Shown one piece after another: positions 15,405 to 64,000 of a stretch of DNA of 64,000 nt. How positions within the stretch are numbered: position 1 is the stretch's first letter; each line of letters opens with the position of its first letter. A program made the translations under genes and the position numbers. Origin of the DNA: Dictyostelium discoideum. Its lineage: Eukaryota. The DNA is taken from positions 2,976,001-3,040,000 of the forward strand of contig CM000151.3 of the NCBI GenBank assembly GCA_000004695.1, written 5' to 3'. Below the pieces are notes generated by a model that saw nothing but the letters and a program-made list of their open reading frames with translations, was not told the DNA's origin and ran no database searches.

Positions 15405-16199
15405 TCAAAACAAAATGATATTTTAATTTTTTATTTTTGAAAAATTAAATGTATAAAAAAAATATAAAATAAAAAGAGATATGTATTAATAATTTATTTT
15501 TTTTTATTTTTTTTATTTATTTTATTTTTTTTTTTATTTTTTATTTTTCATTTGTCGGAATGTAAAATAAGAAAAGATCTGATTTTACTGAAAATTTGGT
15601 ATTTTTGTTTTAAAGAGTGAGAAAAAAAAAAACAGATTTCAGTTAAAAAAAAAAAAATTTTTTTTTCTATTTTTTTTTCTTTTTTTCTTTTTTTTTTTTT
15701 ACGTTCTAAAAAACCAACGATTAAGATTTGCAGTATTTTTGAATTTTTTCACCCAAAGAACAGAGTTAATCACAATTTTTTTCATTTTTTTTTATTTTTA
15801 TTTTATTTTTTTTTTTATTTTTTTTTTTTATTGTTTTTAAAAAACCAAGAAAAGATTTTTAATTTTTTTTTTTATTTTTTTTTTATAAATTTCATTTTTT
15901 TTTTTTTCTTTTTAAATTTTTTATATAAAACAAACCACATCACGCATTGTACTTAATATATTGTAATATTATTTGATTATAAATATTACTTTTTTTTTTC
16001 ATTTTTTTTATTTTATTTTTTTTCCATATAGAAACATATACAATCTTTATTCAAATAAATAAAATAAATAAAATATAAATATACAAATAAATAAATTAAT
16101 TTATAAATAAATATACAAATAATATACAAATAATAAATAAATATACAAATAAATAAAAAAATAAAAATAAGAATAAAAATAAAAATATAAATAAATATA

Positions 16200-16262
16200 T
16201 ATAAATATAAATAAATAAATATAAATATAAATATAAATATAAATATAAATATAAATATAAAT
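16200..16262. repeat. (AAATAT)n hexanucleotide repeat immediately upstream of the RING/TRAF/MATH gene start; mirror at 63524..63586
   Basis: ataaatataaatataaatataaatataaat. Confidence 0.85.
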
Positions 16263-16271
16263 AATATTAAA

Positions 16272-17729
16272 ATGGATAAAAAAATAAATTTAGATTATTT
16301 AATTGATGATATTATTGTAAATTCAGATGATTTAACACCATTTCAATGTCAAATTTGTTTTAATAGTGTCATTGATTTTAAAAAAGAAACCTTATCATTT
16401 GATGTTTTACAATGTAGAAATGGTCATATTTCTTGTCACGAATGGTATGTAGTAGTATTTTATTTTTTTATTTTTTTTTTAATAAGATAAAATAAAATAA
16501 AATAAAATAAAATAAAATAAAATTATTAATTATTAATTTTATTTTAAAGTTGGAATCGTCAATTATCAATTAAACAAGAATGTCCAAGTTGTAAAGTTAA
16601 AACTTTACCAAGTGAATTATCTCGTAATATATTTTTAGAGAATGCATTTCGTGCATTAAAAGTGATATGTCCAAATAAATTTAAAGAAAGTAAATTTCAA
16701 GGAGAGGCAGTTCATTGTGAGAATGGATGTCCAGAGATTTTAAAGGTAGAATTATTGGAGCATCATTTGAAAGAATGTCAATATCAATTTATAAAGTGTC
16801 CAAACAATTCAAACAAATGTAAATATATTATTAGAAAGAATCAAATTGAACATCACAATCAATCGGTATGCGATTACTCTTTGATTCAATGCGAGAAATG
16901 TTCAGAATTAATAGAGAGAAAGAAATTAAATAAACATATCGAGAGTGAATGTGACACTCTTATGATCACATGTAGTAAATGTTCAGCATCCATTGGTAAA
17001 AAATTAATGAATCATCATTTAGAAACCGATTGTCCAATGGAGGAGATTTCATGTCTCTACAAAGCAGGTGGTTGTAATAAAAGATTCCTTCGTTCACAAC
17101 TTTCTCAACATTTATCTGAAAATAATAATCATATCTTTTATATTCAAAATGTTATGGATTTACATAAACTTCAATTGGATGAATGTAATCAAGATTATAG
17201 AAAATTAGAAAAACAAAATAGAGATTTGGAAAAAAGATTATTTTATTTAGAGAGTACTGTAAATTCAACTGTAATAAATAGTAAACCACATGAATGTGGT
17301 GGTGGTGGTGGTGGTGGCAGTGGTAATAATGTTTATAAAGGGAAATGGGTAATCAATAATTGGGATCGTAAATTACGTGAATATCCAATATCAAAGAGTT
17401 TAAATAGTCCATTCTTTCAAATTGGTTCTTCTAAATTCTTTATCATGCTCTACCCAAATGGTAACAATGAGGTTAAAGGTTTTCTAAGTATTTTCCTCTA
17501 TAAAATTTATGATCGTCCATCACTTGTAAAATATAGTTTAGAAGCTAAAAATATTGACCCCACTAAAAATTATAAAAATACTCATACAAATAATTTCATC
17601 AATAACAATGGTAATGGTTGGTTCAAATGGATTGAAAATAAAAGTCAAAATGGTTTCTTTTCAAATAATTCTTTAACAATTAGTATTAGTATTAAAATTA
17701 TTCAAGATCATTCATTAGTTACTGAATAA
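16272..17729 (+). CDS. RING-finger / TRAF-type zinc-finger / coiled-coil / MATH-domain protein (TRAF-like), left copy; exons 16272..16444 and 16550..17729
   Basis: C3HC4 RING restored only after splicing (CQICFNSV...LQCRNGHISCHE|CWNRQLSIKQECPSCK; donor gtatgt at 16445, acceptor ag at 16548-49); repeated C-x-C-x-H-x-C TRAF zinc fingers; coiled coil LEKQNRDLEKRLFYLE; C-terminal MATH-like beta region. Confidence 0.75.
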
Positions 17730-61746: not shown

Positions 61747-62056
61747 TATATATTTGTTGCATTTTTTTTCTTTTTTTTTATAAACTTTAATGACAATGTT
61801 TGTAACAAGATCAACTAAAATATATTGTTATAAGATTAAATAATCTATTTTAATTATTAATGTTTATTCTATTAAAATTATATTAAATTAAATGTTTTGT
61901 TAAAACATTCCCAAAAAAGGTTAAAAAAATACTTTGTTTTTTTTTTAAAAAAAAAAAAAAAAAAAAAAACTATTATTATTTATTAATTAAATTAAATATT
62001 TGAATTATATTTCTTTTTTTTTTTTATAAATTTTTATTATTTTATTTTTATCAAAA

Positions 62057-63514
62057 TTATTCAGTAACTAATGAATGATCTTGAATAATTTTAATACTAA
62101 TACTAATTGTTAAAGAATTATTTGAAAAGAAACCATTTTGACTTTTATTTTCAATCCATTTGAACCAACCATTACCATTGTTATTGATGAAATTATTTGT
62201 ATGAGTATTTTTATAATTTTTAGTGGGGTCAATATTTTTAGCTTCTAAACTATATTTTACAAGTGATGGACGATCATAAATTTTATAGAGGAAAATACTT
62301 AGAAAACCTTTAACCTCATTGTTACCATTTGGGTAGAGCATGATAAAGAATTTAGAAGAACCAATTTGAAAGAATGGACTATTTAAACTCTTTGATATTG
62401 GATATTCACGTAATTTACGATCCCAATTATTGATTACCCATTTCCCTTTATAAACATTATTACCACTGCCACCACCACCACCACCACCACATTCATGTGG
62501 TTTACTATTTATTACAGTTGAATTTACAGTACTCTCTAAATAAAATAATCTTTTTTCCAAATCTCTATTTTGTTTTTCTAATTTTCTATAATCTTGATTA
62601 CATTCATCCAATTGAAGTTTATGTAAATCCATAACATTTTGAATATAAAAGATATGATTATTATTTTCAGATAAATGTTGAGAAAGTTGTGAACGAAGGA
62701 ATCTTTTATTACAACCACCTGCTTTGTAGAGACATGAAATCTCCTCCATTGGACAATCGGTTTCTAAATGATGATTCATTAATTTTTTACCAATGGATGC
62801 TGAACATTTACTACATGTGATCATAAGAGTGTCACATTCACTCTCGATATGTTTATTTAATTTCTTTCTCTCTATTAATTCTGAACATTTCTCGCATTGA
62901 ATCAAAGAGTAATCGCATACCGATTGATTGTGATGTTCAATTTGATTCTTTCTAATAATATATTTACATTTGTTTGAATTGTTTGGACACTTTATAAATT
63001 GATATTGACATTCTTTCAAATGATGCTCCAATAATTCTACCTTTAAAATCTCTGGACATCCATTCTCACAATGAACTGCCTCTCCTTGAAATTTACTTTC
63101 TTTAAATTTATTTGGACATATCACTTTTAATGCACGAAATGCATTCTCTAAAAATATATTACGAGATAATTCACTTGGTAAAGTTTTAACTTTACAACTT
63201 GGACATTCTTGTTTAATTGATAATTGACGATTCCAACTTTAAAATAAAATTAATAATTAATAATTTTATTTTATTTTATTTTATTTTATTTTATTTTATC
63301 TTATTAAAAAAAAAATAAAAAAATAAAATACTACTACATACCATTCGTGACAAGAAATATGACCATTTCTACATTGTAAAACATCAAATGATAAGGTTTC
63401 TTTTTTAAAATCAATGACACTATTAAAACAAATTTGACATTGAAATGGTGTTAAATCATCTGAATTTACAATAATATCATCAATTAAATAATCTAAATTT
63501 ATTTTTTTATCCAT
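62057..63514 (-). CDS. Right-arm mirror copy of the RING/TRAF/MATH gene; exons 63342..63514 and 62057..63236
   Basis: Exact mirror (79786-x) of 16272..17729; identical translations in the ORF track. Confidence 0.75.
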
Positions 63515-64000
63515 TTTAATATTATTTATATTTATATTTATATTTATATTTATATTTATATTTATATTTATTTATTTATATTTATATATATTTATTTATA
63601 TTTTTATTTTTATTCTTATTTTTATTTTTTTATTTATTTGTATATTTATTTATTATTTGTATATTATTTGTATATTTATTTATAAATTAATTTATTTATT
63701 TGTATATTTATATTTTATTTATTTTATTTATTTGAATAAAGATTGTATATGTTTCTATATGGAAAAAAAATAAAATAAAAAAAATGAAAAAAAAAAGTAA
63801 TATTTATAATCAAATAATATTACAATATATTAAGTACAATGCGTGATGTGGTTTGTTTTATATAAAAAATTTAAAAAGAAAAAAAAAAAAATGAAATTTA
63901 TAAAAAAAAAATAAAAAAAAAAATTAAAAATCTTTTCTTGGTTTTTTAAAAACAATAAAAAAAAAAAATAAAAAAAAAAATAAAATAAAAATAAAAAAAA

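What the first reader, a model, noticed from the sequence alone, without database searches (positions are those of the whole stretch)
15786..64000. Centre of a giant near-perfect palindrome: 23.9-kb arms (at least) around a 379-bp asymmetric spacer
For all x in 15786..39703 the sequence equals the reverse complement of 79786-x. Forty ORF pairs have identical lengths and translations and homopolymer runs match exactly, so the two copies are essentially undiverged, which points to a very recent event. The spacer 39704..40082 is not symmetric; it is the left-arm sequence continuing. The topology is therefore a fold-back (hairpin-primed or breakage-fusion-bridge-type) inverted duplication, with the copy joined at 40082|40083 to a point 379 bp upstream. 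I recall that D. discoideum AX3/AX4 carry an inverted duplication on chromosome 2 (~0.75 Mb per arm) whose copies are separated by only a few hundred bp, and that the genes within it carry -1/-2 names (e.g. ap2a1-1/ap2a1-2). This window is consistent with being that junction, seen at base-pair resolution.
Basis: partly seen in the sequence, partly recalled or inferred. Interest (0 to 1): 0.9.

Follow-up and report, generated by a model that had tools for sequence, protein, structure and literature searches.

The report
Known AX4 chromosome 2 fold-back centre

Summary
Window 15786..39703 is the reverse complement of 40083..64000, with no indels and 5 substitutions in 23,918 bp. The two arms flank a unique, asymmetric 379-bp spacer.

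The window is D. discoideum AX4 chromosome 2, about 2,976,001-3,040,000. Published coordinates for the AX3/AX4 inverted duplication (2263132-3015703 repeated at 3016083-3768654) leave exactly a 379-bp gap. Both AX4 AP-2 alpha proteins (EAL70674.1, EAL70705.2) are encoded in the window, one per arm, with their copy-specific differences.

I compared the window with the undisrupted allele, found in an AX2-like long-read assembly and in read-assembled contigs. Left arm plus spacer is the ancestral sequence. It runs unbroken to 40084 and then switches to the reverse complement of 39702 and leftwards. The join therefore carries a 2-bp CA/TG microhomology, which chance alone gives 27% of the time. 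The break truncates a 250-aa BB_PF-family gene after codon 202 and leaves the annotated 215-aa chimera.

[quoted passage not shown] No pre-existing inverted repeat was used.

Verdict: already known, low interest. The only small addition is the base-level junction.

The parts
1..39703 (+). Proximal (ancestral-orientation) arm of the duplication. The implied position is chr2 2,976,001-3,015,703. Only 15786..39703 has its mirror image inside the window.
   Evidence: palindrome check; colinear with the AX2-like assembly GCA_054883475.1, differing almost only in homopolymer lengths; coordinate arithmetic.
39704..40082 (+). Single-copy asymmetric spacer of 379 bp. It is the loop of the fold-back, or equivalently the difference in end trimming between two sister chromatids. 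It is coding sequence of the BB_PF gene (codons 76-202).
   Evidence: 57 of 189 mirrored positions match; unique in the window; the published gap 3015704-3016082 is 379 bp.
39702..39703 (+). TG dinucleotide, the template side of the 2-bp microhomology. The copied arm starts here and runs leftwards.
   Evidence: [quoted passage not shown]
40083..40084 (+). CA dinucleotide shared by the ancestral continuation and the inverted copy. This is the junction microhomology; the novel join lies within 40082..40085.
   Evidence: Logan contigs L003-L005 and L002 are identical to the window through 40084 and then read TTTTCCATGC, against the window's AATTGGAAACC; chance P(>=2 bp) = 0.27.
40083..64000 (-). 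Distal (inverted) arm, a reverse-complement copy of 39703..15786. The implied position is chr2 3,016,083-3,040,000. It carries all 5 derived differences.
39478..40125 (+). Chimeric 215-aa ORF. It consists of the first 202 codons of a BB_PF (PF18063) gene followed by 13 codons read from the inverted arm. It is identical to UniParc UPI0000002A1D. The intact allele is 250 aa.
40006..40308 (-). Mirror copy of the 5' part of the same gene (first 75 codons). It runs out of the arm into the antisense of the spacer, giving a 100-aa ORF.
53715..53726 (+). Cluster of 4 substitutions in the right-arm copy of the AP-2 alpha gene. They change T/N/T to S/G/S, as in EAL70705.2. The left-arm state at 26060..26071 is the ancestral one.
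55095..55095 (+). Single substitution in the right arm (mirror of 24691), at the edge of an A-run in a non-coding stretch. The left arm carries the ancestral state.

Best explanation
[quoted passage not shown] I put this identification at about 0.97.

The most likely history is as follows. A chromosome break, or a collapsed replication fork, left a DNA end inside a BB_PF-family gene, at or just beyond the base that is now window 40084. That end was then joined head-to-head to the same sequence 381 bases further back. This could happen in two ways. The resected 3' end ...CA could fold back, pair with TG at 39702-39703 and prime synthesis. Alternatively, two unequally trimmed sister chromatids could be ligated by end joining. 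[quoted passage not shown] The bridge later broke about 752.6 kb from the centre. According to the literature, that end was healed with rDNA-palindrome (telomere-type) and DIRS sequence.

Shown here: the palindrome, the unique spacer, the orientation of the spacer, the exact switch point, the 2-bp microhomology, the gene truncation, and the absence of the rearrangement in a near-identical strain.

Inferred: the initiating break, the dicentric intermediate, and everything at the distal border, which lies outside the window.
For:: the arms are 99.98% identical with no indels, and the spacer is asymmetric.

the published gap is exactly 379 bp.

both AX4 AP-2 alpha proteins are encoded, one per arm.

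a D. discoideum assembly (GCA_054883475.1, contig JBTAPE010000001.1) differs from the window almost only in homopolymer lengths. It carries the intact gene at 3.019 Mb of its contig, against the implied 3.015 Mb in AX4, and continues for a further 597 kb with no inverted copy.

three independent read-assembled contigs are 100% identical to 39275..40084 and then continue with the ancestral coding sequence.

homology to the orthologue and to the intact alleles stops exactly at residue 202.

sequenced human fold-back inverted duplications show the same anatomy, with a single-copy spacer of 0.77-70 kb and 2-8 bp of inverted microhomology (2 bp is the commonest).

a breakage-fusion-bridge origin has already been proposed for this repeat.

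array hybridisation shows two copies in all Ax3/Ax4 stocks, and none in Ax2 or NC4.
Against: A 2-bp microhomology arises by chance in 27% of simulated fold-back joins in this AT-rich sequence, so it does not prove pairing-primed synthesis.

The sequence alone cannot separate an intrastrand fold-back from sister-chromatid end joining or from a replicative U-turn.

Bloomfield et al. report that sequence near the inversion point is unstable in Ax3-lineage stocks. They suggest that AX4 itself may already have lost ancestral sequence there, so the present join may not be the original one.

No independent read data spanning 40082-40085 could be retrieved here.
Confidence: 0.6

Rival explanations
1. 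The present junction is secondary. The original fusion lay further distal, for example in the repeat-rich, A/T-tract-rich DNA just downstream of the gene. It produced a larger and more symmetric palindrome. The centre was later broken and trimmed unequally (to 40084 on one side and to 39702 on the other) and resealed by end joining. The 379-bp asymmetry would then be a stabilising 'centre-break' deletion and not a fold-back loop.
For: [quoted passage not shown]: in the AX2-like assembly the DNA from about 130 bp beyond the gene's stop codon is rich in A/T-tract inverted repeats. Further downstream it holds 12- and 13-bp tandem arrays, an approximately 810-bp duplicated unit and a CCHC gag-like ORF. 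These are substrates better suited to a first fold-back than a 2-bp match; a 2-bp microhomology is what unguided end joining gives.
Against: This reading needs two events where one suffices. Nothing in the window requires it. Spacers of hundreds of bp to several kb with 2-bp microhomology are the norm for primary fold-backs.
Confidence: 0.2
2. This was a replicative template switch without a free chromosome end. A stalled or collapsed fork let the nascent strand, ending at 40084, re-anneal 381 nt behind on the opposite template (a fork U-turn, or microhomology-mediated break-induced replication). Synthesis then ran backwards for about 750 kb, followed by a second switch. The inverted copy would thus be inserted without loss of the distal chromosome.
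For:: the switch uses minimal homology, and the 379-381 nt distance is of the order of the single-stranded zone at a fork (my inference); in the AX2-like assembly about 597 kb of chromosome lies distal to the break. A haploid cell could hardly lose that much, so the distal DNA was probably retained. A template-switch model explains this directly.
Against: [quoted passage not shown] Retention of the distal segment is also explained if the broken-off part survived as its own chromosome. Chromosome 2 is reported as two fragments in NC4, and its two halves assemble separately in every other genome.
Confidence: 0.15
3. The fold-back is an assembly or cloning artefact in the reference sequence. Either one 750-kb region was assembled once and mirrored, or the centre is a chimeric clone.
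For: The arms are almost base-perfect, so reads from the two copies could not have been told apart. The 5 differences all sit on one arm and could be consensus errors. I could not retrieve independent reads that span the join.
Against:: array hybridisation and qPCR show doubled copy number in all Ax3/Ax4 stocks but not in Ax2; the Hi-C map shows the duplication; an independent comparison with long-read genomes 'easily detected' it in AX4 and found none in AX2-214. The join is clean, lies inside a gene and contains no foreign sequence.
Confidence: 0.03

Closest known systems
The AX3/AX4 chromosome 2 inverted duplication of D. discoideum (Gloeckner 2002; Eichinger 2005; coordinates as quoted in PMC8386026 and PMC5052037)
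   Same: Same organism and same genes. The 379-bp gap between the copies is the same, as are the -1/-2 gene pairs. The rearrangement is absent from an AX2-like genome. This window is that locus.
   Different: Nothing differs in kind. The reference arms are called 'perfect' in the literature, whereas this stretch shows 5 substitutions, all on the distal copy.
Human constitutional fold-back inverted duplications with a disomic spacer (Hermetz et al. 2014, PMC3907307)
   Same: A non-inverted copy, a single-copy spacer and an inverted copy. The spacer is contiguous with the proximal copy. There is a 2-bp inverted microhomology at the boundary between spacer and inversion, and a dicentric / breakage-fusion-bridge intermediate is inferred.
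   Different: The spacer here (379 bp) is shorter than the human range of 766 bp-70 kb. The organism is haploid. The distal chromosome seems to have been kept, not deleted. The far end is reported to carry rDNA-palindrome and DIRS sequence.
Palindrome formation primed by short pre-existing inverted repeats (Tetrahymena rDNA; yeast palindromic amplification; the D. discoideum extrachromosomal rDNA palindrome)
   Same: A giant head-to-head palindrome with a short non-palindromic centre.
   Different: Those systems rely on a pre-existing inverted repeat of several to tens of bp next to the break (from my own knowledge of those systems). Here only 2 bp are shared, and the surrounding 21 positions match at chance level.
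Centre-break stabilising deletions of long palindromes in somatic cells
   Same: The end product is an asymmetric centre sealed with little or no homology. Instability of this centre is documented in related stocks.
   Different: There is no direct evidence that a larger centre ever existed at this locus.

Membership tests
AX3/AX4 chromosome 2 inverted duplication | The sequence is D. discoideum AX4 chromosome 2. | tested here: met
   the window encodes EAL70674.1 and EAL70705.2, both AX4 proteins recorded on an 8,484,197-bp contig. GC is 21%.
AX3/AX4 chromosome 2 inverted duplication | The two copies are in inverted orientation and separated by 3015704-3016082, a gap of 379 bp. | tested here: met
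   the spacer 39704..40082 is 379 bp; published coordinates.
AX3/AX4 chromosome 2 inverted duplication | Each arm is about 752.6 kb long. | not testable with these tools
   The window shows only 23.9 kb of mirrored sequence, and the right arm runs off the window end.
AX3/AX4 chromosome 2 inverted duplication | The rearrangement is absent from AX2, NC4 and wild strains. | tested here: met
   the gene is intact, with no inverted copy, in GCA_054883475.1 (near-identical to AX4), in GCA_054859355.1 and in Logan contigs from 3 or more runs. That GCA_054883475.1 is the AX2-214 assembly is my inference.
AX3/AX4 chromosome 2 inverted duplication | Read depth or hybridisation signal over the arms is doubled. 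| not testable with these tools
   Literature only (array CGH and qPCR).
Fold-back inverted duplication (first step of breakage-fusion-bridge) | A single-copy spacer lies between the direct and inverted copies and is contiguous with the proximal copy in the ancestral sequence. | tested here: met
Fold-back inverted duplication (first step of breakage-fusion-bridge) | [quoted passage not shown] | tested here: inconclusive
   2 bp (CA/TG); chance gives 2 bp or more in 27% of simulated joins.
Fold-back inverted duplication (first step of breakage-fusion-bridge) | The DNA distal to the break is lost or relocated, and the far end is healed. | not testable with these tools
   This lies outside the window; nothing beyond 40084 of the ancestral locus is present in the window; a gene 4-5 kb distal in the AX2-like assembly has no AX4-named protein, which is only a weak hint; rDNA-palindrome and DIRS sequence at the distal border (literature).
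Palindrome formation through a pre-existing short inverted repeat | An inverted repeat of several bp or more flanks the future centre in the ancestral sequence. | tested here: not met
   only 2 bp are shared. By my count on the sequences, 7 of the 21 surrounding positions match, which is about chance.
Non-allelic homologous recombination between inverted paralogues | There is long, high-identity homology at the breakpoint. | tested here: not met
   the neighbouring, oppositely oriented BB_PF paralogue is only 21% identical at the protein level. Both sides of the join lie in the same gene; the only longer inverted repeats in the locus are A/T tracts away from the join.

The most novel reading that the evidence does not exclude
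The present 379-bp centre may not be the original fusion point. It could instead be a secondary, stabilising centre deletion of a once larger palindrome. The AX3/AX4 lineage would then preserve a datable series (about 50 years of laboratory culture) of palindrome-centre decay that could be read from archived stocks. Alternatively, the join may record a replication-fork U-turn and not a broken end.
Probability: 0.25. Interest if true: 0.4.

Novelty: already known. Interest (0 to 1): 0.15.

Why it matters
The duplication matters in practice. About 600 genes are present twice in the most widely used reference genome. Read mappers must mask one copy, and knock-outs in the region need two hits.

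As biology it is a clean, recent, laboratory-dated example of a giant fold-back palindrome in a haploid eukaryote. All of this is already in the literature. The only increment here is the base-level reading of the inner junction against the undisrupted allele. The break lies inside a BB_PF gene after codon 202, the microhomology is 2 bp, no pre-existing inverted repeat was used, and all 5 arm differences sit on the distal copy. No paper in the searchable library describes that detail.

Tried and rejected
Exact-protein look-ups meant to find independent contigs across the junction found nothing. These were the 215-aa chimera and the 100-aa mirror ORF. This outcome is expected, because a de Bruijn assembly breaks at the inner ends of the arms.

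A look-up of EAL70705.2 to obtain AX4 record coordinates found nothing. The AX4 chromosome record itself was never returned as DNA, so the mapping rests on protein identity, the 379-bp match and the position in the AX2-like contig.

I tried to decide whether the 5 right-arm differences are real by searching for the two exon ORFs in read assemblies. Neither allele was on record, so this is inconclusive.

The Eichinger 2005 paper is not held in the library. Its breakage-fusion-bridge proposal is therefore cited second-hand.

The tRNA scans of the window and of the ancestral loci were negative. The tRNA-like fragments in L002 are therefore not intact genes, at least by ARAGORN run in bacterial mode.

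I considered and rejected two mechanisms. Recombination between inverted BB_PF paralogues is ruled out by 21% protein identity. Priming from a pre-existing inverted repeat is ruled out.
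Full report
OBSERVATION. A direct base-by-base test shows that window 15786..39703 is the reverse complement of 64000..40083 at 23,913 of 23,918 positions, with no gaps. 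The five exceptions are 24691/55095 and a cluster at 26060, 26062, 26063 and 26071 (mirror 53726..53715). The symmetry ends sharply at 39703|39704 and 40082|40083. Inside the 379-bp spacer only 57 of 189 mirrored positions match, which is the chance level for DNA of 21% GC. The spacer is unique in the window, and none of its 20-mers recurs. Of 30 ATG-started ORFs of at least 60 aa per arm, 29 are identical.

IDENTITY. A 591-aa ORF in the left arm is 100% identical to the C-terminal exon of 'adaptor-related protein complex 2, alpha subunit [Dictyostelium discoideum AX4]'. The cluster listing shows two AX4 GenBank proteins, EAL70674.1 and EAL70705.2, both on an 8,484,197-bp contig. EAL70674.1 ends with the left-arm translation. 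EAL70705.2 ends with the right-arm translation, including its three variant residues.

Two papers give the AX4 chromosome 2 repeat as 2263132-3015703 repeated at 3016083-3768654. The gap is 379 bp, exactly the spacer, so the window corresponds to chr2 2,976,001-3,040,000. An independent D. discoideum long-read assembly (GCA_054883475.1) carries the same gene at 3.019 Mb of a 3.6-Mb contig, in the same orientation. This agrees with the implied position in AX4.

THE JUNCTION AGAINST THE UNDISRUPTED ALLELE. An ORF at 39478..40125 runs from the left arm through the whole spacer and across the join. It belongs to the Pfam family BB_PF, PF18063, and is identical to a 215-aa UniParc entry. Other D. 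discoideum genomes, and contigs assembled from public read sets, encode a 250-aa version. Identity to the AX4 protein, and to the D. dimigraforme orthologue, stops exactly at residue 202.

At the DNA level, three read-assembled contigs are 100% identical to window 39275..40084. Assembly GCA_054883475.1 is colinear with 29383..40084. All of them then continue TTTTCCATGC..., where the window reads AATTGGAAACC..., which is the reverse complement of 39701 and leftwards.

The switch carries a 2-bp microhomology: CA at 40083-40084 against TG at 39702-39703. A simulation of 200,000 random fold-back joins in this sequence gives 2 bp or more in 27% of cases. The microhomology is compatible with pairing-primed synthesis or microhomology-assisted end joining, but it is not evidence for either.

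No longer homology was available. By my count on the sequences, 7 of the 21 positions around the join match. The oppositely oriented neighbouring paralogue is only 21% identical in protein. The only longer inverted repeats in the ancestral locus are A/T tracts away from the join.

ANCESTRAL STRAIN. GCA_054883475.1 differs from the window almost only in homopolymer-run lengths, plus one low-complexity patch. It is therefore of the same NC4-derived lineage. A 2025 paper that deposited ten long-read Dictyostelium genomes, including AX2-214, reports that the AX4 chromosome 2 duplication was easily detected and that AX2-214 has none. That GCA_054883475.1 is that AX2 assembly is my inference. Its contig runs 597 kb beyond the break point without any inverted copy.

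MECHANISM. The anatomy is a direct copy, a single-copy spacer contiguous with the proximal copy, an inverted copy, and minimal microhomology. This is the anatomy of fold-back inverted duplications sequenced in humans (spacers of 766 bp-70 kb; 2-8 bp of microhomology, with 2 bp commonest).

The most likely sequence of events starts with a DNA end inside the BB_PF gene at or beyond 40084. An intrastrand fold-back with a 379-nt loop, or ligation of unequally trimmed sister chromatids, would then give a mirror-image and probably dicentric chromosome. Breakage followed about 752.6 kb away, and the end was healed.

The literature already proposes a breakage-fusion-bridge cycle for this repeat (citing Eichinger et al. 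2005, which I could not read). [quoted passage not shown] Only the junction anatomy is shown here. The initiating lesion, the dicentric and the distal healing are inferred or taken from the literature.

RIVALS. (a) The present join may be secondary. Bloomfield et al. found that Ax3-lineage stocks lose sequence near the inversion point, and suggested that AX4 itself may have degenerated. In the AX2-like genome, A/T-tract inverted repeats begin about 130 bp beyond the gene's stop codon. Further downstream lie 12- and 13-bp tandem arrays, an approximately 810-bp duplicated unit and a CCHC gag-like ORF. These would have been better substrates for a first fold-back.

(b) A replicative template switch (fork U-turn, or microhomology-mediated break-induced replication) would give the same join. 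It would also explain simply why the distal 597 kb need not be lost. The telomere-type sequence at the distal border argues against it.

(c) An assembly artefact is very unlikely, given the copy-number, Hi-C and comparative long-read evidence. I could not, however, retrieve reads across the join.

ARM DIFFERENCES. At all five sites the left arm agrees with the AX2-like assembly. At the coding sites it also agrees with D. citrinum, D. firmibasis and another D. discoideum strain. All five changes are therefore on the distal copy. Four of them lie within 12 bp of a low-complexity coding stretch. Whether they are real mutations or reference errors could not be settled.

VERDICT. It is nevertheless a long-known feature of the AX4 reference genome. 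The base-level description of the inner junction is a minor increment that I did not find in the searchable literature. Novelty: already known. Interest: low.

Noticed in passing
window 53715-53726 and 55095 (mirror of 26060-26071 and 24691): All five differences between the arms are derived states on the distal (right) arm. Four lie within 12 bp and change three residues of AP-2 alpha (TTSNT to STSGS), as in GenBank EAL70705.2. They could be a complex mutation that arose after the duplication, or an error in the reference consensus.
   Followed up: partly
L002:10887-21237 (AX2-like assembly, distal to the break) compared with L001:10965 onwards: Homology between two D. discoideum strains ends about 210 bp after the stop codon of the broken gene. 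In the AX2-like strain the distal DNA is repeat-rich: 12- and 13-bp tandem arrays, an approximately 810-bp duplicated unit containing tRNA-like fragments, and a CCHC zinc-knuckle gag-like ORF at 18870-19490. In the other strain a Fumble-domain (PF03630) gene follows. The fold-back therefore lies at the edge of a strain-variable, transposon-type region.
   Followed up: partly
L002:14999-15634: A 211-aa ORF lies 4-5 kb distal to the break in the AX2-like genome. It has exact matches only in read-assembled contigs (runs SRR24091722-29) and no protein named as AX4. The best other hit is 96% identical over 52% of its length. This is a weak hint that AX4 lacks, or does not annotate, DNA next to the join.
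   Followed up: partly
window 32367-32477 (mirror 47309-47419): This is the only patch where the window and the AX2-like assembly differ by many substitutions and not by homopolymer length. It is low-complexity A/T-rich DNA next to a long A-run, so the cause may be misalignment or an assembly error in either genome.
   Followed up: no
window about 35200-40125, with mirror copies in the right arm: Three BB_PF (PF18063, beta-barrel pore-forming domain) paralogues sit in alternating orientation next to the centre. AX4 therefore carries two intact pairs, plus one 215-aa chimera and one 75-codon stump of the third gene.
   Followed up: partly
contig JBTAPE010000001.1 (3,617,450 bp), the source of L002 and L006: The AX2-like contig ends 597 kb beyond the break point. 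[quoted passage not shown] How the AX4 'fusion' relates to the duplication lies outside this window.
   Followed up: no
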